A stretch of 31,427 nucleotides of DNA from a virus. Its lineage: Duplodnaviria; Heunggongvirae; Uroviricota; Caudoviricetes. How positions within the stretch are numbered: position 1 is the stretch's first letter; each line of letters starts with the position of its first letter. The notes beneath the pieces were generated by a model. The model saw only the letters and a list, made by a program, of their open reading frames with translations, had not been told where the DNA came from and made no database searches. Where the stretch lies: positions 1 through 31,427 of the IMG/VR virus record IMGVR_UViG_3300005805_000054; one strand, given 5' to 3'. A program made the position numbers and the translations under genes. This document shows positions 21,275 to 31,203 of the stretch, one piece after another.

Positions 21275-21541
21275 ATGTCAGACTATAACCGCACTTTTAA
21301 TGGTGACGCAAAGATTAAACTAACACAACTTATCAACGAGGGCATGAGTGTCATGCATGAGATTGATACATTGCAAGGTGGATTGAACGACACTATCAAA
21401 GCAGTAGCAGAAGAACTTGAAATCAAGGCTTCCACATTGAAGAAAGCAGTTCGTATTGCCCATAAAGCAAGTCTCGGTCAAACTAACAAGGATCACGATG
21501 AACTCAACACTATCTTGGAAACAGTGGGCAAAACTCTATGA
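21275..21541 (+). CDS. Small helical protein resembling T4 DsbA-type dsDNA-binding proteins
   Basis: Size and the ELEIKASTLKKAVRIAHK segment; recognition by eye only. Confidence 0.5.
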   Translation: MSDYNRTFNGDAKIKLTQLINEGMSVMHEIDTLQGGLNDTIKAVAEELEIKASTLKKAVRIAHKASLGQTNKDHDELNTILETVGKTL

Positions 21542-24255
21542 GTTATGTGGATGCAATACATTCACGTGATGAAGATAGAATATATGTGGTTGAGAGGGAT
21601 AAAGACGGCAAGCGTCAATATAAAGAATATCCTACAAACTATGTATTGTATTACCCTGACCCTAAGGGTAAACAACGTAGTATCTATGGCAATCCGGTCA
21701 GTCGTTTCAGTACACGCAAACGCACAGAGTTTGAAAAAGAAAAACGTATTCATTCAGGTAAGAAATTATTTGAAAGTGATGTGCCTGTAGTCTTTCGCTG
21801 CCTAAGTGAAAACTATCTAGGTGTTGATGCTCCTAAGCTTCACACATGCTTTTTCGACATTGAAGTAGACTTTGATCCTGTTAAAGGATTCAGTCCCACA
21901 AGTGATCCATTCAATCCTGTAACTGCTATCAGTTGTTACTTAGATTGGCTTGACCAATGTATTACTCTTGTCATTGCTCCTAAGCATATGACAAGTGAGA
22001 CAGCAAATGAGATTGTAAATGAATTTGAAAACACAATGCTTTTCAAAACTGAGAAGGAAATGTTTGATGTTTTCTTTCAACTCATTGAAGACGCAGATGT
22101 GTTAACTGGCTGGAACAGTGAAGGCTATGATATTCCCTACATGGTCAATCGTGTTACTAGAGTAATGAGTAAAGATGACACACGCAAGTTTTGCTTGATG
22201 GGTCAACTGCCTAAGCCACGAGAATACGAACGATTCGGTAAGAGTGAAACAACTTATGACTTAGTAGGTCGTATTCACTTGGACTATCTACAGTTGTACA
22301 AAAAGTATAACTATGAATCACGACACAGTTACAAACTTGACTCTATCGGTGAGATGGAAGTCGGTGAAAACAAAACACAATATGAAGGTACTCTTGACCA
22401 ATTGTATAACAAAGACTTTAAAAAGTTCATTGAATACAACAGGCAAGATACAATGTTGTTGGTGAAGATTCACAATAAACTTAAGTTTTTAGAATTAGCT
22501 AATCAACTTGCACATGAGAATACAGTACTGCTTCCAACAGTTATGGGTTCAGTGGCAATGATTGAGATGGCAATTTTTAATGAGGCTCACGCTCGTGGGC
22601 TTGTTGTTCCAGATAAAAAACGAAAGGTTGAAAATGCAGAAGAAGTCCAGCAGGCAGCAGGTGCCTTCGTTGCTACTCCAAAAAGAGGGATGCACGAATA
22701 TGTCGGCGCAGTTGACATCAACTCGCTCTATCCCTCGGTTATTCGCGCCCTCAACATGGGCGGAGAAACAATCGTTGCACAAGTCAGACAAACACTCACA
22801 GACCAGTACATGAAAGAGAAAGGCTTACGCCTTGCTATGGAAAAGAAACGCTACAAAGATGGCGATGATGATGTAACTGGTGCTATCTTGTGGGAAGGGT
22901 TATTCAGTTGTTTAGAATACACTGCAATCATGTCACAAGAACGCGGTACTATGCTTACAGTAGACTACGAAGATGGTCGAAGTGAAGAAATGAGTGCAGC
23001 GGAGATATGGAAGATGATCTTTGATAGTCATAAGCCTTGGATGCTAAGTGCTAATGGTACTATCTTTACTTATGAAAAAGAAGGTGTTGTTCCTGGTCTG
23101 TTAACCCGCTGGTACTCAGAGCGTAAGGAAACACAGAAACTTGCTAAAGAAGCATATGGTACTGATAAGTTTGAATACTATGATAAACGACAACTTGTTC
23201 GTAAGATTTTATTGAACTCGGCATATGGTGCATTGTTGAATGAACATTGTCGCTTCTATGATAAGCGTATCGGTCAGAGTGTTACATTGAGTGGTCGTCA
23301 GATTGTTAAACATATGATGAGTCAAATCAATCAGACTGTTGCAGGTGAATATACACATGAAGGTGAAGCGATTGTGTATGGTGATACTGACTCATGCTAT
23401 TTTTCAGCATATTCTACATTGAAGCCTCAGATTGACAAAGGTGAATTGCATTGGGATAAAGATTTGTGTATTGGTCTATACGATAGTATAGCTGACGAGG
23501 CAAACAATAGTTTCCCTCAGTTTATGGAAAAAGCATTTCATGCTCCTCGCAAGAATGGTGAAATCATTAAAGCTGGTCGTGAACTTATCGGTGATCGTGC
23601 TATCTTTATGGTCAAGAAGCGTTATGCTATTAACATCTTTGATAAAGAAGGTAAGCGTAAAGACAAAGACGGACAATTAGGCGATATCAAAGCTATGGGT
23701 CTTGACTTGAAACGTGCCGACACACCTAAGTATGTACAAGAATTCTTAATGAATGTACTACAGATGGTTCTTCAACAAGGTAAAGGTCGTGAAGAAGTAA
23801 TTGAGACTATCAAAGACTTCAAACGAATACTAACTGCACAAGATAGTTGGACAAAAGGTTCACCTAAAGGTGTAAACAAACTTACATACTATGGTGACTT
23901 GGAATCAAAGGCTGCAACAGGTCGTGCTAATATGCCCGGTCACGTAAGAGCCGCACTTAATTACAATTACTTGCGTAGAGTAAACAGTGACCAATATAGT
24001 CAAAAGATTGTTGACGGTATGAAAGTTATTGTTTGTAAACTCAAATCAAATGCTTTGGGCTTTACGAGTATTGCTTATCCAGTTGATGAATTACGACTAC
24101 CCAAATGGTTTATAGAGTTACCATTCGATGATGCGGCAATGGAACAAACATTGGTCGATGAAAAGATTGATAACTTATTGGGCGTACTAGATTGGGATAT
24201 TCGTAGCAATACAGATACTAATAGCACATTCAATGATTTATTTACATTCGGGTGA
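21538..24255 (+). CDS. Family B DNA polymerase (T4 gp43-like) with 3'-5' exonuclease
   Basis: FDIE, GWNSEGYD, YNRQD exonuclease motifs; DINSLYPS, KILLNSAYG, YGDTDS polymerase motifs. Confidence 0.97.
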   Translation: MSYVDAIHSRDEDRIYVVERDKDGKRQYKEYPTNYVLYYPDPKGKQRSIYGNPVSRFSTRKRTEFEKEKRIHSGKKLFESDVPVVFRCLSENYLGVDAPKLHTCFFDIEVDFDPVKGFSPTSDPFNPVTAISCYLDWLDQCITLVIAPKHMTSETANEIVNEFENTMLFKTEKEMFDVFFQLIEDADVLTGWNSEGYDIPYMVNRVTRVMSKDDTRKFCLMGQLPKPREYERFGKSETTYDLVGRIHLDYLQLYKKYNYESRHSYKLDSIGEMEVGENKTQYEGTLDQLYNKDFKKFIEYNRQDTMLLVKIHNKLKFLELANQLAHENTVLLPTVMGSVAMIEMAIFNEAHARGLVVPDKKRKVENAEEVQQAAGAFVATPKRGMHEYVGAVDINSLYPSVIRALNMGGETIVAQVRQTLTDQYMKEKGLRLAMEKKRYKDGDDDVTGAILWEGLFSCLEYTAIMSQERGTMLTVDYEDGRSEEMSAAEIWKMIFDSHKPWMLSANGTIFTYEKEGVVPGLLTRWYSERKETQKLAKEAYGTDKFEYYDKRQLVRKILLNSAYGALLNEHCRFYDKRIGQSVTLSGRQIVKHMMSQINQTVAGEYTHEGEAIVYGDTDSCYFSAYSTLKPQIDKGELHWDKDLCIGLYDSIADEANNSFPQFMEKAFHAPRKNGEIIKAGRELIGDRAIFMVKKRYAINIFDKEGKRKDKDGQLGDIKAMGLDLKRADTPKYVQEFLMNVLQMVLQQGKGREEVIETIKDFKRILTAQDSWTKGSPKGVNKLTYYGDLESKAATGRANMPGHVRAALNYNYLRRVNSDQYSQKIVDGMKVIVCKLKSNALGFTSIAYPVDELRLPKWFIELPFDDAAMEQTLVDEKIDNLLGVLDWDIRSNTDTNSTFNDLFTFG

Positions 24256-24332: not shown

Positions 24333-25064
24333 ATGAAAGATAATTTACAAGATTTAATTCAACACACACATGGTCTCGGTAACGTAGACCTTATCAAAGT
24401 ATCCGGTACTGATACAGAGACACAAATTAACGCAGTAGCAGAAGACAAAACTGTTATCGTATCTGGAACATTAAACAGTCCAGTAGCAGACTTTATCGGA
24501 GTGTTTGGTATGCCTAACTTAGGTAAACTTAAAACAATTCTAGGCTTTGATGACTATGATACTGATGCTAAGATTAGTGTAACAACTTCTAATCGTGATG
24601 GTGTTGATATACCAACAACAATTCACTTTGAAACAAAAGATGGTTCATTTGTTAATGACTATCGTTTGATGAGCAAAGCAATTGTTGAAGAAAAAGTTAA
24701 GAGTGTTACATTCAAAGGTACTACTTGGAATGTTGAGTTTCATCCTAGCATTGCAGGTATTCAGCGATTAAAGAAACAAGCAAGTGCTAATAGCGAACAA
24801 GAACATTTTACTATGACTACTGTTAATGGTGACTTGAAAATCAACTTTGGCGATCCATCGACTCACAGCGGTAACTTTGTGTTTCAACCTACAGTTGGTG
24901 GAACATTGAGCAAGACATGGCACTGGCCCGTAAAAGTGTTTCAAGCTATCTTAGACTTACCCGGTGACAAGACAATTAGAATTGCAGATGCTGGTGCGAC
25001 TGAGATTACAGTTGACAGTGGTCTAGCAACATATCGTTACTTACTCCCAGCTAACGCAAAATGA
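24333..25064 (+). CDS. Probable sliding clamp (gp45/PCNA-like processivity factor)
   Basis: 243 aa, alpha/beta pattern, directly after the polymerase, clamp loader present in the window. Confidence 0.6.
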   Translation: MKDNLQDLIQHTHGLGNVDLIKVSGTDTETQINAVAEDKTVIVSGTLNSPVADFIGVFGMPNLGKLKTILGFDDYDTDAKISVTTSNRDGVDIPTTIHFETKDGSFVNDYRLMSKAIVEEKVKSVTFKGTTWNVEFHPSIAGIQRLKKQASANSEQEHFTMTTVNGDLKINFGDPSTHSGNFVFQPTVGGTLSKTWHWPVKVFQAILDLPGDKTIRIADAGATEITVDSGLATYRYLLPANAK

Positions 25065-25438
25065 TTGACTATATAGTTGGTGGTGAGTTCATGAATGTGA
25101 CTAGTAGTAAGGGAGCAGTCCCTTACTTGAATTCTAATCCTAATCCTATGACAGGTTCGTTAGCATTTGATTCATCTACACAAAGCATGAAAGTATTTGA
25201 TGGTAATAATTGGCAAACTGTTGGTGGCGGCAGTGCAGTGGTAAATCTAACACCTAACGCTATCAGCATACTCAAGTGGGCAGAAAAGAAGATGTTTGAA
25301 GAACAAGAGCTACAAGCATTGTGTGACAAACATCCTGCTATCAAAGACATTGTTGGTGAAATGAGAATAAGCATGGACAACTATATCAATAAGATTGAAA
25401 TGGTTAAAGCTCTAATACAAGAAGAAGTAAAAGTTTAA
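25061..25438 (+). CDS. Hypothetical protein
   Basis: ORF track; coupled start and stop overlaps. Confidence 0.7.
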   Translation: MIDYIVGGEFMNVTSSKGAVPYLNSNPNPMTGSLAFDSSTQSMKVFDGNNWQTVGGGSAVVNLTPNAISILKWAEKKMFEEQELQALCDKHPAIKDIVGEMRISMDNYINKIEMVKALIQEEVKV

Positions 25439-26991
25439 TGGAACAAGTAAATCTATCAGCAAGTCATAACCCTGAATGGGCATTGTTCTTACCTGCCGTC
25501 AGTAGTTTTTATATATCTGGCTTGGGTAAACAGCGCAAAGGTGAACAATACTTTGACGCCGCACGTATACCTGCACAATTCAACGGTGATGTAGAGAAAT
25601 TAAACTTTCTTAACAGTAAAGAAGGTTTGTACTACTACAAGTGGGGATTGTACTCTGCTGGTCATGCTAACTTAGATACTACCGTAAACGATCCTAGTGA
25701 ATCTATTATCAGAGAGCGTGAAGAAGGTACTTTCATGTTGGGTGACAGTGGTGGCTTTCAAATTTTGAAATGTCAGTGGCCTGCTGATTGGAAAGATCCT
25801 AACTGCCCACGTGCTATGGTAAAGCGTAAAGCCGTGTTGAACTGGATGGATACATACATGGACTACGGTATGTGTTTGGATATTCCATCACAGTCATTGT
25901 CAACTTTTCATATCAAGGACCCTAAGACAGGTAAATCTGCTCACGGTATCAGTACGATTGAAGAAGCTATTACTGCGACTCATATTAACAACGAATACTT
26001 CATTCAAAATCGTAACGGCAATTGCAAGTTCTTAAACGTATTGCAAGGTCGTAATCATACACAATCAGATGATTGGTATGAAGAAATGAAGAAGTATTGT
26101 GATCCAAATATCTATCCAGACAATCACTTCAACGGCTGGGCATTCGGTGGTCAAAACAAGATTGATGTACACTTGATGTTGCGTAGACTTGTCAACATTA
26201 TCTACGACGGATTGTTAGTTGAAGGTAAGCATGATTTGATTCACTGTTTGGGTGTGTCTATCTTAGAGTATGCTGTATTGTTCACTGACATTCAGAAAGC
26301 TATTCGCAAGTATCATAATCCAAAATTAACTATTACATTTGACTGTGCAAGTCCATTCTTTAGTGCGGCTAAAGGTCTAGCTTATTTCAATACAGCGATT
26401 GAGCATAATAAAAAATGGTCATATCAAATGGAAAAGACTGCTGAAAAGAAATCTTATTCTACCGATAATCGTAAATTTAGAGATGCATGTCTAGCTGAGG
26501 GAATACATAAACAATTTACAGACAGTCCGATTACTGATATGTTAACCATGAAGGACCTTTGCTATCGAGGTCAAGGATTCTTGGGACAGCATGGTAAAGA
26601 AACTAAAACAAGTTGGGATACATTAAGTTATACATTGTTACAAAGTCATAATGTCTATACCCATATGTCAGCGGTACAAGAAGCTAATCGCCAATATGAG
26701 AAGGGTATAATGCCCAAAATGGTTATGAATCAATTCGATGAAGAACACTTTGGTGAAATAGTTGATAGTATCTTTGCACAAAAAGATAGAGAAAAGAGTC
26801 TAGCTATGATAGAATCACATAGCAGCTTCTGGATGCAAATGAAATCAGGTAGTCAAGGGTTCAGTGGTAAAAAAGCAATGAATGCCATGACAATGTTTGA
26901 TCAGTTATTTGAAATAAATAATGATGAATCAGAAGTTGATGAAGTCATTGAAGACAGTGATGATGAAATTTTCAAAGTATTAGGAGAATAA
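25438..26991 (+). CDS. tRNA-guanine transglycosylase (TGT)/DpdA-like base-exchange enzyme
   Basis: TGT motifs in order: DSGGFQ, CLDIP, VLQG, GWAFGG, HCLG, TFDCAS. Confidence 0.75.
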   Translation: MEQVNLSASHNPEWALFLPAVSSFYISGLGKQRKGEQYFDAARIPAQFNGDVEKLNFLNSKEGLYYYKWGLYSAGHANLDTTVNDPSESIIREREEGTFMLGDSGGFQILKCQWPADWKDPNCPRAMVKRKAVLNWMDTYMDYGMCLDIPSQSLSTFHIKDPKTGKSAHGISTIEEAITATHINNEYFIQNRNGNCKFLNVLQGRNHTQSDDWYEEMKKYCDPNIYPDNHFNGWAFGGQNKIDVHLMLRRLVNIIYDGLLVEGKHDLIHCLGVSILEYAVLFTDIQKAIRKYHNPKLTITFDCASPFFSAAKGLAYFNTAIEHNKKWSYQMEKTAEKKSYSTDNRKFRDACLAEGIHKQFTDSPITDMLTMKDLCYRGQGFLGQHGKETKTSWDTLSYTLLQSHNVYTHMSAVQEANRQYEKGIMPKMVMNQFDEEHFGEIVDSIFAQKDREKSLAMIESHSSFWMQMKSGSQGFSGKKAMNAMTMFDQLFEINNDESEVDEVIEDSDDEIFKVLGE

Positions 26992-26992
26992 T

Positions 26993-27205
26993 ATGCCATA
27001 TAGAAGTCGTATAAAGACATTAGAAGAATCATATCGTTTAGTAGAAAACCAGTTGTTTCAGTTAGAAAAAGCAGGTAATGCTGATCCTAAAAAAATTGCT
27101 AGCTTGCGTGAAGCTAGTTCAAAATACATGACAGAACTTAGACAAATGAATCGTGCTCAATGGGATCATGACCATGAAACAGTAGATTTAGATGATGACC
27201 GATAA
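26993..27205 (+). CDS. Hypothetical protein, 70 aa
   Basis: ORF track; TAGGAG Shine-Dalgarno. Confidence 0.7.
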   Translation: MPYRSRIKTLEESYRLVENQLFQLEKAGNADPKKIASLREASSKYMTELRQMNRAQWDHDHETVDLDDDR

Positions 27206-27764
27206 TCTATTACCCAATCTGGCGAAGCCTGAAATAGAATGGGATATTAATAAGCGAGTTATTGTTATTGATAACGCAATTAGCCCGGATATTTGTGATA
27301 GTATTATTAATTTTGCAACTGACAAGTTGGCTAAAGGTATTAATAAATATCCACAGGTTTTTAGTATTAGTTTTCATTCGTGTATGCTTCAGTTAGAGCA
27401 TGAAGTTCATCAAATGTTGCAACCAATATGGCAACAATCTATTGACAGATTGGGATTTGATATTGATTTCGTTGAACCATATGAAGTTAAAAGATACACT
27501 TCTAGAGATTTCTTTGGTAAACACGTAGATAATTACTACAGTTTAACCAAAGACATAGACAGAAAGATAACAATGAGTGTACAATTGACTGACAGGTCAG
27601 AATATACCGGTGGCGAGTTGTTAGTGTTAGGTAGAGACATATGTGCCAAGTCTAAAGGTAGTGTCACTATATTTCCTAGCATTTTTTCACATGAAGTAAA
27701 ACCCATTACTTCTGGTACACGATGGTCATTAATAAGTTGGGCGTGGGGCCCTTATTGGAGATAA
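27192..27764 (+). CDS. 2OG-Fe(II) oxygenase (prolyl-4-hydroxylase-like)
   Basis: KHVD (HxD), GGEL, HEVKPITSGTRWSL. Confidence 0.88.
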   Translation: MMTDNLLPNLAKPEIEWDINKRVIVIDNAISPDICDSIINFATDKLAKGINKYPQVFSISFHSCMLQLEHEVHQMLQPIWQQSIDRLGFDIDFVEPYEVKRYTSRDFFGKHVDNYYSLTKDIDRKITMSVQLTDRSEYTGGELLVLGRDICAKSKGSVTIFPSIFSHEVKPITSGTRWSLISWAWGPYWR

Positions 27765-27766
27765 TT

Positions 27767-28195
27767 ATGGAACAACATACAGTAGCATTGACTGAACAAC
27801 GTCAGCGCATTAAAGATAAAGCAGTACGTACAATTTTTGTTCGCTTTCAAAAAGAAGGCATTCATAAGTACCCAGCGGCAGCAACAGACCCTGCTCTCGC
27901 TACCGGCGATGAGTATGATGTTAGTTTTCTAGGAACTCCACATCGTCATATCTTTCATTTTGAAGTGTCTATTGAAGTAGAACACTCAGACCGAGCCATT
28001 GAATTCATTCAATTCAAAAGATGGCTAGAAAATCTGTACAAAGGTGGGACATTAGCACTTGACTATAAAAGTTGCGAAATGATTGCTGAGGACCTTTATG
28101 AAGTAATTGCTACACGCTATCCTGATAGAACAATTCATATTGAGGTTAGTGAAGACAACGAAAACGGAGCAAGATTAACATTCACTGCTTCATAA
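27767..28195 (+). CDS. QueD/PTPS-like T-fold protein
   Basis: HRHIFHFEV (HxH), SCEMIA and VSEDNENG segments, next to the TGT-like gene; start 27767 behind GGAG. Confidence 0.55.
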   Translation: MEQHTVALTEQRQRIKDKAVRTIFVRFQKEGIHKYPAAATDPALATGDEYDVSFLGTPHRHIFHFEVSIEVEHSDRAIEFIQFKRWLENLYKGGTLALDYKSCEMIAEDLYEVIATRYPDRTIHIEVSEDNENGARLTFTAS

Positions 28196-28905
28196 AGTTT
28201 ATGTATTGAAATAGAACATTTAGTTCGTTTAGTTCTGTTTGCTTGCTTCGGTAACAATTCTAAATTAGCATAATGTCCTATTACTTCAGGAGGAATCCCT
28301 TGGATAAATCCTTCAGTTTTACTAAACTTATGATCTAGTTCATACAAGTCTCCTCGTATGAGATTGTTTGGATTGATTAGATTATGATGATGCTTCTAGC
28401 TTAAATTAGTATAGTTAGTGACTTGTTCCTGATATAATTCCCATTGAGACTTTGATTCTTTTGGGATTGCTAATCCTAGCTTAATTTTAGTGTCAGATGC
28501 TTGTTTATATGACTCTGGATTTCTTTTTCTGGCCTTTTCTGTTTGCAACTTTTTAGCTAAATCAGTATGAGATTTATTGAACATTGGATTGTTATTACCG
28601 TAATGTCCGCCGCGCTCTTTTACTTTTTTAGATATCTTTTCCCCTTTAGCTCTAACCCACTCAGAATCAGCATGTAGTTCCTTCAATTTTTTATTACCAG
28701 ACTCACTCATTTTTTTCATATGTTTTATACGGTCTTCCGCAGTGGTGCGTTGTTTTCTACTATTTTCTGCTTTTTCAATAAAACCGGAACATTGAGTAAT
28801 TTTCTCAGTACAACGGGTAATCTTAGTATTAACACTTATCCAATTAGCTTGCTTACCGCAATAAAAACATATATCATTACGTGTGGGGTTGAATATTTTA
28901 GGCAT
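28135..28905 (-). pseudogene. HNH endonuclease gene (N-terminal Cys motif, NUMOD3-like motif, C-terminal HNH) interrupted by one in-frame TAG
   Basis: ORFs 28396-28905 and 28135-28347 share a frame: ...YTNLS*KHHHNLINPNNLIRGDLYELDHKFS...NLELLPKQANRTK. Confidence 0.75.
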
Positions 28906-28987
28906 AGTTCAATCTCTCTTTCATCATGTATTTATGCCGAAACAACAAAACCTTATCAATCACTCGCTATTTAAAGGAATTAATAAA

Positions 28988-29194
28988 ATGGCAAAACAAC
29001 AATATCAATCTAACCCACGTGTTGCTCAAATCTTTGAGGACCTAGAAAACTACTTGACATTCTGTCAAGACTATGGGTACAAGTTTGACGAATCAACACT
29101 ATACGATATGCGTAGTTTCGCATTTCGTCAGCATCAAAAACAATTAGCCGGTAAATGGGCTAAGGATCAATGGGCAGAGGATATGCGTCCATGA
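28988..29194 (+). CDS. Hypothetical protein (~68 aa)
   Basis: ORF track (28883); ATG at 28988 behind AAAGGA is the more likely start. Confidence 0.65.
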   Translation: MAKQQYQSNPRVAQIFEDLENYLTFCQDYGYKFDESTLYDMRSFAFRQHQKQLAGKWAKDQWAEDMRP

Positions 29195-29314
29195 ATAAAT
29201 CTGCGACTTATCAACGGTATCGACAATAGAAGGAAGTCCAATAAGAGTGACATGACAGTGGAAATGCTGTATAATAAGTTTAAAGAATTTAAGGAGCAAC
29301 TATGCGAAAATTGA
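29195..29314 (+). pseudogene. Possible 3' remnant of an HNH endonuclease gene
   Basis: Startless frame INLRLINGIDNRRKSNKSDMTVEMLYNKF resembles NLELLPKQANRTKRTKCSISIHKLYEAV of the neighbouring HNH. Confidence 0.45.
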
Positions 29315-30501
29315 TATATATGGGTCTCGAAAAATACAAGAGCAGATACACTTTTCAACTACAAGACTGGAATGAAACAGTGTTTAAGCGAAGAGGCATT
29401 GACTATGTTATTGTCCCGGGTGAAACACTAGATAATGACCAAGCTATTGTTACTGGACAAGTATTAGATGCTCATGGACGTACATACTTTGGTATGAGTC
29501 AATTAATGAATCTAGTAAAGATGATGAAACAAGGTGAGTGTAGTTATGAAGATATTGTCTACTTTGAAGATATGTTTCAGCCGGGCATTGAAAGTCTTCC
29601 TTATATACTTAAGCAAGTTCCTATTAATCTCCGTCCTCGTATATTTGTCCGTTGTCTAGCACAAAGTATTGACCCTGATGACTTTGTTCATGTCTGGGGC
29701 ATGAGTGAATTCATGGGTCACTATGAGAAGATGGTTGACTCATTCGTTGATGGTGTGCTTGCTTCAAATGAAGAAATGGTAATGCATATGAAGATTGCAG
29801 GTTGGAAGGCTCCGATCTACAATATCTCAGGCTTAGCATTTGGTAAAGAAGAAGTGCGTGGTCGTATCAATAATAACATCAAGCCTTTTACTGAGCGTAA
29901 GATGCGTATTGCATTTTCAGCACGGTGGGATCAAGAAAAGCAACCTGACTTCTATATGGATGTGATTGAAGAATTTTACAACCGTTATGGTATGAAAGAT
30001 CGTCATGGTGTATATCGTGGTGTAGAGTTCTGTGTGTTCAGTGGCAGTAAACTAAAAAGCAACAACGACAGTTATATGAAGCGTACAGAAGATATGCAAA
30101 AACGTGGGTTGTTAAAGATTCACGAAGACCTAGATAAGAATCAATATTATGAATTATTGAACGATACTAGAGTATTGTTTAACTGTGCTTTACAAGACTG
30201 GGTAAGTAATACAGTAAGTGAAGCAGATAGTTTAGGTTGTAATGTATTGTATCCAGCATATCGCAGTTTCCCAGAAACATTTGCGAATGATTATACAAGA
30301 ATGTATGCACCCTGGAGTGTTGAAGATGCGGCAATAAAGTTGTATAATATGTTACATCAGCCTCATGCAAATCAAGGTAAGATCAGTGACTGGACTAATG
30401 GTACAGTTGATAGAATTTGTGATATCTTAGAAGGTAACGGACAACAATGGTTGCGTATGGATACAGACTATCGCAAACATACCAGAGAGAGTAAATACTA
30501 A
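29302..30501 (+). CDS. GT-B-fold (GT4-like) glycosyltransferase
   Basis: FSARWDQEKQPDF and NCALQDWVSNTVSEADSLGCNVLYPAYRSFPE (Ex7E-like region). Confidence 0.75.
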   Translation: MRKLIYMGLEKYKSRYTFQLQDWNETVFKRRGIDYVIVPGETLDNDQAIVTGQVLDAHGRTYFGMSQLMNLVKMMKQGECSYEDIVYFEDMFQPGIESLPYILKQVPINLRPRIFVRCLAQSIDPDDFVHVWGMSEFMGHYEKMVDSFVDGVLASNEEMVMHMKIAGWKAPIYNISGLAFGKEEVRGRINNNIKPFTERKMRIAFSARWDQEKQPDFYMDVIEEFYNRYGMKDRHGVYRGVEFCVFSGSKLKSNNDSYMKRTEDMQKRGLLKIHEDLDKNQYYELLNDTRVLFNCALQDWVSNTVSEADSLGCNVLYPAYRSFPETFANDYTRMYAPWSVEDAAIKLYNMLHQPHANQGKISDWTNGTVDRICDILEGNGQQWLRMDTDYRKHTRESKY

Positions 30502-30513
30502 AAGGAGAATATT

Positions 30514-31203
30514 ATGTTTGAAACAACTTATGAAAATGAAATGTCGTATCGTTCAGCAAGCGAAGTCAACTCAGCAATGGGTCGTGTCTACGGACATATG
30601 AGTCTTGCTGTTATTGTATCAATGATTGTTAGTTACTTTGTGGGCACAAGTCCAGAGTTGTTGGCATTCTTTTTTACAGGTGTAATGAAATGGATTGTAA
30701 TCTTTTCACCATTAGTAGCAATCTTTGGTGTTGCTATGATTCTGGGCAATAATCCTAGTAAGGGAGTAGCACAACTTTGCTTACATGGCTTTGCGGCATT
30801 GATGGGATTGAGTTTTGCTACAATCTTTGCAATATTCACTATGGGTAGCATTGTATCAGCATTTATGGGCGCGGCAATATTATTTGCTGTAATGAGTGCG
30901 TATGGTTACTTTACTAAGCAGAGTCTAGATAGTGTTGGCAAGTTTATGTTTGTTGGGTTAATTGCTATCATCATTGCCAGCATTGTCAATATTTTTATTG
31001 GTAGTACTGTGATGCAGATGGTTATCAGTGCATTAGCTATTATCATCTTCCTAGGCTTGACTGCGTATGACACACAGAAGATTCGTGAAGAACTAAGTGT
31101 ACAAGCCAGTGATGTTGCGGAAGTACGTGGTGCATTAACTCTATATATGGACTTTATCAACTTGTTCTTAAACTTGCTACAACTGTTTGGTGACAGGAAA
31201 TAA
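30514..31203 (+). CDS. Bax inhibitor-1/YccA-family membrane protein
   Basis: About seven hydrophobic helices; AYDTQKI and ALTLYMDFINLF motifs. Confidence 0.9.
   Translation: MFETTYENEMSYRSASEVNSAMGRVYGHMSLAVIVSMIVSYFVGTSPELLAFFFTGVMKWIVIFSPLVAIFGVAMILGNNPSKGVAQLCLHGFAALMGLSFATIFAIFTMGSIVSAFMGAAILFAVMSAYGYFTKQSLDSVGKFMFVGLIAIIIASIVNIFIGSTVMQMVISALAIIIFLGLTAYDTQKIREELSVQASDVAEVRGALTLYMDFINLFLNLLQLFGDRK

What the first reader, a model, noticed from the sequence alone, without database searches (positions are those of the whole stretch)
25438..30501. TGT/DpdA-like, 2OG oxygenase, QueD-like and GT-B glycosyltransferase genes downstream of the replisome: possible new guanine hypermodification
Seen: these four genes lie in one co-oriented run after the polymerase and clamp. 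Established: phage DpdA enzymes insert 7-deazaguanine bases (preQ0, preQ1, G+, ADG and others) into DNA using FolE/QueD/QueE/QueC-derived precursors, and 2OG oxygenase plus glycosyltransferase pairs build hydroxylated, glycosylated bases in other phages. No folE, queE or queC is visible in this window. Inference: a base-exchange step followed by hydroxylation and/or glycosylation could give an undescribed glycosylated deazapurine. The target could instead be tRNA.
Basis: partly seen in the sequence, partly recalled or inferred. Interest (0 to 1): 0.7.

Follow-up and report, generated by a model that had tools for sequence, protein, structure and literature searches.

The report
Phage deazaguanine DNA genes with sugar transferase
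An uncultured giant lake phage carries the gene set that replaces guanine in DNA with a 7-deazaguanine, and a sugar-transferring enzyme is always built into that set, so its DNA may hold a sugar-bearing purine; the neighbouring oxygenase is only an optional passenger.

Summary
The four genes are real and co-oriented after the DNA polymerase. The 517-aa protein has no Pfam hit. Its model (pLDDT 90.5) matches tRNA-guanine transglycosylases (Z 19.4), it keeps the DSGGFQ, LD, QG and GWAFGG motifs, and it is a remote relative of the phage DpdA of ACP17.

The 157-aa "QueD-like" protein is DpdL, the proposed 7-carboxy-7-deazaguanine decarboxylase. It has the LxxxHRHxF motif and is homologous to phiST CGPG_00067. 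FolE, a true QueD and QueE lie 0.2 to 7 kb past the window end. QueC is absent, also from a complete 352-kb relative.

The 399-aa protein is a GT4-type GT-B glycosyltransferase (Z 24.8). It follows DpdL in 95 of 95 distinct related contigs. Homologues sit beside DpdL in five other phage groups: PA5oct, ACP17, BUCT-ZZ01, X1/BUDD and Phosso.

The 2OG oxygenase is genuine, but only 11 of 95 relatives have it and the complete relative has none.

Best reading: a QueC-less, DpdL-type 7-deazaguanine DNA modification with an added, uncharacterised sugar step. An obligate hydroxylate-then-glycosylate scheme is not supported. DNA is a likelier target than tRNA, because PA5oct DNA resists G-site restriction enzymes.

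This scan has noted the same theme on other DNA many times (319 notes).

The parts
21538..24255 (+). Family-B DNA polymerase; conserved left neighbour of the module
   Evidence: phrog_262, E 1.5e-195. Present upstream in nearly all related loci.
24333..25064 (+). 243-aa clamp-like protein
   Evidence: phrog_12062, E 1.3e-31. 32% identical (E 2.5e-39) to the Phosso gene annotated 'sliding clamp beta' and 31% identical to PA5oct EST35_0314, annotated 'structural protein'. Clamp function was not tested here.
25061..25438 (+). 125-aa unknown protein, present in some relatives only
   Evidence: Found in 19 of 27 long related loci. Only a weak PHROG hit.
25438..26991 (+). DpdA-like TGT-fold transglycosylase (517 aa); proposed to swap guanine in DNA for a 7-deazaguanine base
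   Evidence: No Pfam, PHROG or PDB sequence hit. AF2 model pLDDT 90.5. Foldseek top 50 are all TGT. VIA Z 19.4 over 306 residues to 2ash_B. Invariant D103, S104, G106, D148, H269, G272 and D302. Motifs align to human QTRT1. hhalign 96.7% to the ACP17 protein ASD50403.
26993..27205 (+). 70-aa unknown ORF, present in some relatives only
   Evidence: Found in 17 of 27 long related loci. No family hit.
27192..27764 (+). 2OG-Fe(II) oxygenase (190 aa); an accessory passenger gene
   Evidence: PF13640, E 2e-13, above the cut-off. H111-x-D113 and H167 present. Found in only 11 of 95 distinct relatives, at two positions, with median identity 56%. No PF13640 gene in the complete 352-kb relative.
27722..28195 (+). 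DpdL, a QueD paralogue proposed as CDG decarboxylase; likely start at 27767
   Evidence: The LGTPHRHIF motif matches LxxxHRHxF of Cui et al. 2023 (PMC10516641). blastp E 3e-14 to phiST CGPG_00067 and E 3e-47 to ACP17 ASD50405. No PTPS Pfam hit even at E 10. Lies upstream of the glycosyltransferase in 95 of 95 relatives.
28135..28905 (-). HNH/NUMOD3-type homing endonuclease interrupted by one in-frame TAG; a mobile insertion
   Evidence: Translation shows a single stop between the NUMOD3-like part and an HNH-like tail. Weak NUMOD3 hit. Found in only 2 other related loci.
28883..29194 (+). Small conserved ORF between DpdL and the glycosyltransferase (longest ORF 103 aa; likely 68 aa from the ATG at 28988)
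   Evidence: Present in 54 of 54 loci of the first set. No family hit. Absent from BUCT-ZZ01, where DpdL abuts the glycosyltransferase.
29302..30501 (+). GT4-type GT-B glycosyltransferase (399 aa); conserved partner of DpdL and DpdA
   Evidence: AF2 pLDDT 83.7. VIA Z 24.8 to 6kih_A; other top hits include MshA, BshA, PimA, SenB and BH4 glucosyltransferase. Invariant R208, K213 and E307. 63% identical to BUCT-ZZ01 UTS52032, which lies next to DpdL. Homologues lie beside DpdL in ACP17, PA5oct, Phosso and X1.
30514..31203 (+). Bax1-I/YccA-type membrane protein; accessory, with a variable position in relatives
   Evidence: PF01027, E 9.5e-52. Found in 12 of 27 long loci, at different positions.

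Best explanation
The window's right end is the start of a QueC-less, DpdL-type 7-deazaguanine DNA-modification module of a PA5oct-like jumbo phage.

Inferred pathway:
- FolE, QueD and QueE, encoded just downstream, turn GTP into 7-carboxy-7-deazaguanine. This step follows established enzymology.
- DpdL converts that to 7-deazaguanine or a close derivative. This role is proposed in the literature and remains unproven.
- The 517-aa TGT-fold DpdA-like enzyme exchanges guanine in phage DNA for that base. This is inferred from the fold, the conserved catalytic aspartates and the PA5oct phenotype.
- The GT4 glycosyltransferase is an integral part of the module. A second glycosyltransferase, a GalE-like epimerase and a nucleotidyltransferase further downstream often accompany it. 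It most likely adds a hexose to the deazaguanine, either before or after insertion. The acceptor atom is unknown.

The 2OG oxygenase and the broken HNH endonuclease are optional insertions, not pathway steps.
For: DpdA-like protein:
- The fold matches TGT at Z 19.4, rmsd 4.3, 306 residues aligned, and all top rows are TGT or arcTGT.
- BFVD neighbours include phage DpdA/TGT proteins and phiST M4SLA5.
- D103, D148 and D302 are invariant. The DSGGFQ, LD, QG and GWAFGG motifs align to QTRT1.
- hhalign gives 96.7% to ACP17 ASD50403, 94.5% to BUCT-ZZ01 UTS52034 and 70% to phiST DpdA3.

DpdL: motif and homology.

Precursor genes on the same contig:
- FolE, E 6e-62.
- QueD, E 5e-15.
- QueE, phrog_2076, E 4e-51.
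- No QueC or Pfam TGT in the contig, in a complete 352-kb relative, or in PA5oct, ACP17 and BUCT-ZZ01.

Linkage:
- DpdA and DpdL lie upstream of the glycosyltransferase in 95 of 95 distinct relatives.
- Homologous glycosyltransferases lie beside DpdL in PA5oct, ACP17, BUCT-ZZ01, X1/BUDD and Phosso, even where the DpdA belongs to a different sequence clade.
- The second glycosyltransferase is 38% identical to BUCT-ZZ01 UTS52035, which lies between FolE and DpdA.
- A GalE-like gene directly follows the glycosyltransferase in 19 of 48 relatives.

Against: - There is no chemistry for this phage or for any phage that carries the glycosyltransferase.
- DpdL activity and DpdA3-type activity have never been reconstituted. 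Cui et al. failed with the phiST and ACP17 genes.
- 7-deazaguanine has no hydroxyl group, so the sugar acceptor is unclear.
- phiST makes plain dDG without any glycosyltransferase, and RHph_I1_18 has DpdL with no adjacent glycosyltransferase.
- The structural neighbours of the glycosyltransferase act on small molecules, including a pterin, so it need not act on DNA.
- The 95 of 95 figure comes from one phage lineage (72-97% identity) and partly reflects shared ancestry.
Confidence: 0.7

Rival explanations
1. The module makes plain 2'-deoxy-7-deazaguanosine DNA, as in phiST. The glycosyltransferases and sugar-nucleotide genes serve something else, such as a glycosylated pterin or other small metabolite, virion protein or host envelope glycosylation. 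Their adjacency would then reflect a shared early or metabolic gene block.
For: phiST reaches full dDG replacement without a glycosyltransferase. dDG offers no obvious acceptor hydroxyl. Structural neighbours include UDP-glucose:tetrahydrobiopterin glucosyltransferase (5zes, Z 22.1) and other small-molecule GT4 enzymes. FolE plus a PTPS-family enzyme are also the first steps of pterin synthesis (established knowledge).
Against: Homologous glycosyltransferases sit directly beside DpdL in six phage groups with otherwise different genomes and with two different DpdA clades. In BUCT-ZZ01 two glycosyltransferases flank DpdA and DpdL inside a nine-gene block. No sepiapterin-reductase-type gene was seen in the cluster.
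Confidence: 0.25
2. One reading: base exchange, then hydroxylation by the 2OG oxygenase, then glycosylation of the new hydroxyl. This would parallel base J or glucosyl-hmC.
For: The oxygenase is a genuine PF13640 member with an intact HxD...H triad, and in this phage it lies between DpdA and DpdL. An oxygenase would solve the missing-acceptor problem.
Against: The oxygenase is present in only 11 of 95 distinct relatives, at two alternative positions, at about 56% identity. A complete 352-kb relative that keeps DpdA, DpdL and the glycosyltransferase has none. It is not annotated in the clusters of PA5oct, ACP17, BUCT-ZZ01, X1 or Phosso.
Confidence: 0.05
3. The TGT-fold enzyme acts on tRNA (host or phage), or on free nucleotides, rather than on DNA. 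In the nucleotide case the deazaguanine enters DNA before replication through the nucleotide pool.
For: The fold is that of tRNA-guanine transglycosylases. A xanthine-guanine phosphoribosyltransferase gene sits inside the BUCT-ZZ01 cluster and in 8 related lake-phage loci, which could make a deaza-GMP. phiST has a MazG-like pyrophosphatase in its cluster.
Against: There is no Pfam TGT hit, and the CxCxxC...H zinc motif is not conserved. The 95-kb contig has no tRNA genes. Relatives are phage DpdA-type proteins. PA5oct virion DNA itself is restriction-resistant at G sites. The gene sits among replication genes.
Confidence: 0.1

Closest known systems
DpdL-type dDG system of Cellulophaga phage phiST (FolE, QueD, QueE, DpdL, DpdA3; Cui, Hutinet et al., NAR 2023, PMC10516641)
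   Same: The gene logic is the same: FolE, QueD and QueE without QueC, a DpdL with the LxxxHRHxF motif, and a divergent TGT-fold transglycosylase next to replication genes.
   Different: The transglycosylase here is 517 aa against 259 aa and matches phiST DpdA3 only weakly (hhalign 70%). A GT4 glycosyltransferase, a second glycosyltransferase, a GalE-like epimerase and a nucleotidyltransferase are built in. phiST has none of these in its cluster.
Pseudomonas jumbo phage PA5oct (Wroclawvirus) locus EST35_0316-0322
   Same: The order is the same: polymerase, clamp-like gene, DpdA-like (33% identical), GT4 homologue, DpdL (60% identical), QueE. Its DNA is reported to carry a modified G (PMC12191111).
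   Different: In the record, all genes but QueE are annotated as hypothetical. The preprint names QueE and PTPS but no transglycosylase or glycosyltransferase. The glycosyltransferase is only 19% identical to this one.
Bacterial and phage DpdA1/DpdA2 and tRNA-guanine transglycosylases (PF01702)
   Same: TIM-barrel TGT fold, the DSGGFQ general-base aspartate, the LD substrate aspartate, and the QG and GG motifs.
   Different: There is no PF01702 match, the zinc-site motif is not conserved, and the protein has about 90 extra C-terminal helical residues.
Glycosylated DNA bases: T4 glucosyl-hmC (alpha/beta-GT) and base J (JBP 2OG oxygenase plus JGT); own knowledge
   Same: A GT-B enzyme encoded beside base-modification genes.
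   Different: Those systems glycosylate a hydroxymethyl pyrimidine. Here the base is a purine analogue without a hydroxyl group, and the oxygenase is dispensable.
Queuosine glycosylation in tRNA (QTMAN/QTGAL; own knowledge, plus a feature-based lead)
   Same: A GT4-type enzyme decorates a 7-deazaguanine derivative. A QTMAN cluster appears among the language-model neighbours (rank 56, score 0.97).
   Different: QTMAN acts on the cyclopentenediol of queuosine in RNA, and no such side chain can be made here because QueC and later enzymes are absent. The resemblance is a lead only and was not tested by alignment.

Membership tests
TGT/DpdA superfamily | TGT-type TIM-barrel fold | tested here: met
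   AF2 pLDDT 90.5. VIA Z 19.4, rmsd 4.3, 306 residues aligned to 2ash_B. All top 50 rows are TGT or arcTGT.
TGT/DpdA superfamily | Catalytic and substrate motifs: Asp of DSGGFQ, substrate-binding Asp (LD), and the QG and GG motifs | tested here: met
   D103, S104, G106 and D148 are invariant, and Q203 (81%) and G238 (79%) are conserved, across 68 diverse relatives. They align co-linearly with the same motifs of human QTRT1, although the hit itself is weak (E 1.4).
TGT/DpdA superfamily | Nucleophile aspartate (Z. mobilis D280 in MFDCV; numbering from my own knowledge) | tested here: inconclusive
   D302, in TFDCAS, is invariant, and the structural alignment spans it. No residue-level alignment to a TGT covering this position was obtained.
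Canonical tRNA-guanine transglycosylase (PF01702) | Pfam model above the gathering score, and the CxCxxC...H zinc site | tested here: not met
   No PF01702 hit even at E 10. Only C375 (53%) and H404 (85%) are partly conserved, and there is no CxCxxC motif.
Phage DpdA3 (Cui et al. 2023) | Homology to phiST CGPG_00065 and to the ACP17 candidate DpdA, and co-occurrence with FolE, QueD and QueE without QueC | tested here: inconclusive
   hhalign gives 70% (E 4e-5) to phiST DpdA3 and 96.7% (E 3e-10) to the ACP17 424-aa neighbour of DpdL. I could not confirm from the paper which ACP17 gene the authors call dpdA. The context criterion is met. By blastp the family forms a separate clade with PA5oct and Phosso.
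DpdL (proposed CDG decarboxylase) | LxxxHRHxF in place of the QueD motif CxxxHGH | tested here: met
   LGTPHRHIF here. The same motif is present in the phiST, ACP17, BUCT-ZZ01, Phosso, X1 and RHph_I1_18 homologues.
DpdL (proposed CDG decarboxylase) | Sequence homology to phiST CGPG_00067, and a genome with FolE, QueD and QueE but no QueC | tested here: met
   blastp E 3e-14 to phiST and E 3e-47 to ACP17. Context shown.
DpdL (proposed CDG decarboxylase) | Decarboxylase activity on CDG | not testable with these tools
   The activity has never been shown, even for phiST DpdL.
QueD / PTPS (PF01242) | Pfam model, and the catalytic Cys of CxxxHGH | tested here: not met
   The 157-aa protein gives no PF01242 hit at E 10, and Leu replaces the Cys. 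The true QueD is a different gene at contig 34631-35113.
GT4 / GT-B retaining glycosyltransferases | Two-Rossmann GT-B fold | tested here: met
   pLDDT 83.7. Z 24.8 over 339 residues to 6kih_A, and Z 22-24 to MshA, BshA and PimA. Atlas neighbours carry PF00534.
GT4 / GT-B retaining glycosyltransferases | Nucleotide-sugar binding residues (R...K motif and EX7E) | tested here: met
   R208, K213 and E307 are invariant in 51 sequences. The first Glu of EX7E is Asp299 in this clade and Glu in the ACP17, PA5oct and X1 homologues. Assignment of these residues to the GT4 motifs rests on my own knowledge.
GT4 / GT-B retaining glycosyltransferases | Pfam Glycos_transf_1 above the gathering score | tested here: not met
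   This protein gives only PF13524 at E 0.016, below the cut-off. Nearly all X1-type relatives carry PF00534.
2OG-Fe(II) oxygenase (PF13640) | Pfam model above the cut-off, and the HxD...H iron triad | tested here: met
   51.5 bits against a cut-off of 27. H111, D113 and H167 are present.
2OG oxygenase as a member of the deazaguanine module | Conserved linkage with DpdA, DpdL and the glycosyltransferase | tested here: not met
   Present in 11 of 95 distinct relatives. Absent from the complete relative G001 and from the cultured-phage clusters.

The most novel reading that the evidence does not exclude
These phages carry a glycosylated purine in DNA: a 7-deazaguanine bearing one or two hexoses. 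The donor is probably a UDP-hexose, given the GalE-like gene. The conserved GT4 enzyme would attach the sugar, possibly with the second glycosyltransferase, to a base without a hydroxyl, by C- or N-glycosylation or through the carboxylate of CDG. The 517-aa protein family would be a new DpdA subfamily and the missing transglycosylase of PA5oct.
Probability: 0.35. Interest if true: 0.85.

Novelty: new variant of a known kind. Interest (0 to 1): 0.65.

Why it matters
All DNA glycosylations I know of are on hydroxymethyl pyrimidines, and the eight 7-deazaguanine derivatives catalogued in phage DNA by Cui et al. carry no sugar. If the embedded glycosyltransferase acts on the deazaguanine, this would be a new class of DNA base.

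The protein family has thousands of members in metagenomes. It also occurs in cultured phages, among them the therapy candidate PA5oct, so the base would bear on restriction, CRISPR and END-nuclease evasion and on sequencing and cloning of such DNA.

Independently of the sugar question, the work gives three results:
- It names a candidate transglycosylase for the unexplained modified G of PA5oct.
- It suggests why DpdL plus DpdA alone failed in E. coli: a conserved partner was left out.
- It removes the oxygenase from the model.

Tried and rejected
- Sequence searches of the 517-aa protein gave nothing usable. Pfam, PHROGs, NCBIfam and PDB phmmer were tried. A profile of 68 relatives against PDB gave only a sub-threshold, co-linear QTRT1 match at E 1.4.
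- Scanning the 68 relatives against Pfam gave PF01702 in 2 members at E 0.011 only.
- The known or candidate DpdA3-type proteins of phiST, ACP17, BUCT-ZZ01 and X1 also give no Pfam TGT hit. Membership therefore had to rest on folds and profile comparison.
- The search for related loci with the diverse alignment A1 failed because no stretch was conserved enough. The single protein was used instead.
- A search for public Nanopore runs holding this DNA, meant to look for systematic miscalls at G, listed none.
- The supplementary tables of Cui et al. are not held. I could not check whether PA5oct-type proteins are already listed as DpdA3, or which ACP17 gene the authors call dpdA.
- The idea that the 157-aa gene is QueD was rejected.
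- The idea that the oxygenase is a pathway step was rejected.
- No robust TGT/DpdA phylogeny was attempted. At 12-18% identity an alignment-based tree would not be trustworthy.

Full report
**Setting.** The window is the first 31.4 kb of a 95.4-kb IMG/VR virus contig that CheckV rates 28% complete, so it is a fragment of a jumbo phage. The closest cultured relatives of its genes are the Pseudomonas jumbo phage PA5oct group, Sinorhizobium phage Phosso and a Vibrio jumbo phage. Earlier notes of this scan call it a lake phage.

After a family-B DNA polymerase (21538-24255; phrog_262, E 1.5e-195) comes a 243-aa protein. It is homologous to a Phosso gene annotated as a sliding clamp and to a PA5oct 'structural protein'. 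Between them lie a 70-aa ORF, a minus-strand HNH/NUMOD3 endonuclease broken by one in-frame TAG and a small conserved ORF.

**The 517-aa protein (25438-26991).**
- It has no hit in Pfam, PHROGs, NCBIfam or PDB sequences.
- It belongs to a very large family. More than 5,997 metagenomic proteins passed the threshold in the word-indexed search, and an exhaustive search found 833 cluster representatives at 50% identity.
- An alignment of 68 diverse members leaves S73, D103, S104, G106, D148, P150, H269, G272 and D302 invariant.
- The AlphaFold model is confident (pLDDT 90.5). Its 50 best Foldseek matches in the PDB are all tRNA-guanine transglycosylases. VIA-align gives Z 19.4, rmsd 4.3 Å and 306 aligned residues to T. 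maritima TGT, with arcTGT and human QTRT1 tied.
- The family profile aligns to human QTRT1. The match is weak (E 1.4) but co-linear: DSGGFQ on DSGGFQ, LD on LD, LQG on IQG and GWAF-G on GFAIGG.
- D302 sits in TFDCAS. From my own knowledge this resembles the MFDCV motif that holds the TGT nucleophile. That equivalence is inferred, not shown.
- The CxCxxC...H zinc motif of TGTs is not conserved.
- Among viral models, neighbours include proteins annotated as phage TGT or queuine tRNA-ribosyltransferase, a Vibrio phage nt-1 protein and the 259-aa phiST protein.
- Profile comparison links the family to the 424-aa ACP17 protein next to DpdL (96.7%, E 3e-10), to the 416-aa BUCT-ZZ01 protein (94.5%) and, weakly, to phiST DpdA3 (70%, E 4e-5).
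- By blastp there are two clades: this phage, PA5oct and Phosso (520-550 aa), and ACP17, BUCT-ZZ01 and X1 (416-437 aa).
- No other TGT-type gene exists in the contig or in a complete relative.

**The 157-aa protein is DpdL, not QueD.**
- It gives no PTPS hit even at E 10.
- It carries LGTPHRHIF, exactly the LxxxHRHxF motif by which Cui, Hutinet et al. define DpdL. That paper proposes DpdL as the decarboxylase that turns 7-carboxy-7-deazaguanine (CDG) into 7-deazaguanine (PMC10516641).
- It is homologous to phiST CGPG_00067 (E 3e-14) and to ACP17 ASD50405 (56% identical, E 3e-47), the two DpdL genes used in that paper.

**The precursor genes are just outside the window.**
- FolE is at contig 31672-32346 (E 6e-62).
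- A true QueD is at 34631-35113 (PF01242, E 5e-15).
- QueE is at 37598-38452 (phrog_2076, E 4e-51; the best NCBIfam hits are all QueE models).
- QueC is absent from the 95 kb. It is also absent above cut-off from a CheckV-complete 352-kb relative whose DpdA is 87% identical, and from PA5oct, ACP17 and BUCT-ZZ01.
- This FolE, QueD, QueE, DpdL, no-QueC pattern is the one that in phiST goes with complete replacement of dG by 2'-deoxy-7-deazaguanosine.

**The 399-aa protein is a real GT4-type GT-B glycosyltransferase.**
- Pfam alone gives only a sub-threshold hit.
- The model (pLDDT 83.7) matches sucrose-phosphate synthase at Z 24.8 over 339 residues. MshA, BshA, PimA, SenB and a tetrahydrobiopterin glucosyltransferase follow at Z 22-24.
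- R208, K213 and E307 are invariant in 51 sequences.
- Distant relatives of the X1 type carry PF00534.

**Linkage is the main new evidence.**
- Within the lineage I fetched 157 related loci, which hold 106 distinct orthologues of the glycosyltransferase. All 95 with enough upstream DNA have DpdL and the DpdA-like gene upstream.
- The tightest arrangement leaves only about 730 bases between DpdA and the glycosyltransferase. DpdL and the small ORF (found in all 54 loci of that set) fill this gap.
- Of the 48 with more than 7.5 kb downstream, 40 have FolE, 39 QueE, 34 QueD, 33 a GalE-like epimerase (19 of these directly after the glycosyltransferase), 25 a RfaE-domain-II-like nucleotidyltransferase and 20 a second glycosyltransferase.
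- These loci are 72-97% identical to the query at the protein level, so shared ancestry explains part of the pattern.
- The cross-lineage cases weigh more. Mutually homologous glycosyltransferases (E 1e-5 to 1e-82) lie directly beside DpdL in PA5oct, ACP17, BUCT-ZZ01 and Phosso, and one gene away from DpdL, next to DpdA, in Xanthomonas X1/BUDD.
- BUCT-ZZ01 has a glycosyltransferase 63% identical to this one but a DpdA of the other clade. The glycosyltransferase and DpdL therefore travel together independently of the DpdA type.
- The second glycosyltransferase (contig 38845-40170) is 38% identical to the BUCT-ZZ01 gene that lies between FolE and DpdA.
- phiST has DpdL without a glycosyltransferase in its cluster, and RHph_I1_18 has none adjacent to DpdL. 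The enzyme is therefore an addition, not a universal part.

**The 2OG oxygenase is genuine but is a passenger.**
- It scores 51.5 bits on PF13640 and has the HxD...H triad.
- It occurs in 11 of 95 distinct relatives (13 of 54 in the first set), at two different positions. Its median identity is 56%, against about 80% for the core genes.
- The complete 352-kb relative has no PF13640 gene at all.
- It is not annotated in any of the cultured-phage clusters.

**DNA or tRNA.** No direct data exist for this phage. [quoted passage not shown] It also reports that nucleases sensing modified G restrict the phage. The authors name QueE and a PTPS but no transglycosylase (PMC12191111). The PA5oct orthologue of the 517-aa protein (EST35_0316) sits two genes from DpdL and six from QueE, which makes it the obvious candidate. 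The contig has no tRNA genes.

**Mechanism.**
- Established enzymology: GTP to H2NTP (FolE), to CPH4 (QueD), to CDG (QueE).
- Proposed in the literature but unproven: CDG to 7-deazaguanine (DpdL).
- Inferred here: exchange of G in DNA by the 517-aa enzyme.
- Open: what the glycosyltransferase does. 7-deazaguanine has no hydroxyl group, so a sugar would need C- or N-linkage, or attachment to the CDG carboxylate, or the enzyme may act on a precursor. The GalE-like gene points to a UDP-hexose donor.
- Cui et al. could not obtain dDG from DpdL plus DpdA of phiST or ACP17 in E. coli and suggested that other enzymes may be needed. In ACP17 the conserved glycosyltransferase is such a candidate.
- I put about 0.8 on a deazaguanine DNA modification and about 0.35 on a sugar-bearing deazaguanine.

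**Literature and earlier notes.** I found no paper that describes a glycosylated deazaguanine in DNA or this glycosyltransferase association. The library is incomplete and the key supplementary tables are not held. The scan itself has noted the same theme on other DNA 319 times, in at least 217 genomes. My reading was formed before I saw those notes and agrees with them, but they are not independent evidence.

Noticed in passing
window 28135-28905 (- strand): An HNH homing endonuclease with a NUMOD3-like N-terminal part is interrupted by a single in-frame TAG. Its 3' end overlaps the 3' end of DpdL by about 60 bases. A copy is present at this spot in only two other related loci (L018, L164).
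   Followed up: partly
L009:3447-3908 (BUCT-ZZ01) and loci L115, L128, L137, L152, L153, L155, L160, L163: A xanthine-guanine phosphoribosyltransferase gene sits inside the deazaguanine cluster between FolE and QueD or QueE in BUCT-ZZ01 and in eight lake-phage relatives. This hints that the free deazaguanine base may also be converted to a nucleotide.
   Followed up: no
L093:8215-9366 (Vibrio phage Bakedbeans gp176): The DpdL-like sequence is the C-terminal third of a 383-aa protein. This may be a fusion of DpdL with an unknown N-terminal domain that matches neither DpdA clade by blastp.
   Followed up: no
window 30514-31203: A Bax1-I/YccA-type membrane protein (PF01027, E 9.5e-52) is encoded in the phage. 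It moves between positions within the deazaguanine cluster in relatives and is absent from many.
   Followed up: partly
contig 33007-33477 and 33761-34555 (L006:2007-2477, L006:2761-3555): A RfaE-domain-II-like nucleotidyltransferase was present in 27 of 27 long loci of the first set. A P-loop kinase fused to an NMNAT-like domain also lies between FolE and QueD. These may activate a sugar or another group for the glycosyltransferases, or they may belong to NAD salvage.
   Followed up: partly
contig 36819-37601 (L006:5819-6601): A second homing endonuclease (phrog_655, E 1e-29) is inserted just upstream of QueE. No related locus matched it in the tblastn surveys.
   Followed up: no
L009 (BUCT-ZZ01) compared with the window: The glycosyltransferase of the cyanophage BUCT-ZZ01 (Kyanoviridae) is 63% identical to this jumbo phage's, and the DNA is 65.5% identical over 1 kb. 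The two DpdA proteins belong to different sequence clades, which suggests module exchange between unrelated phages.
   Followed up: partly
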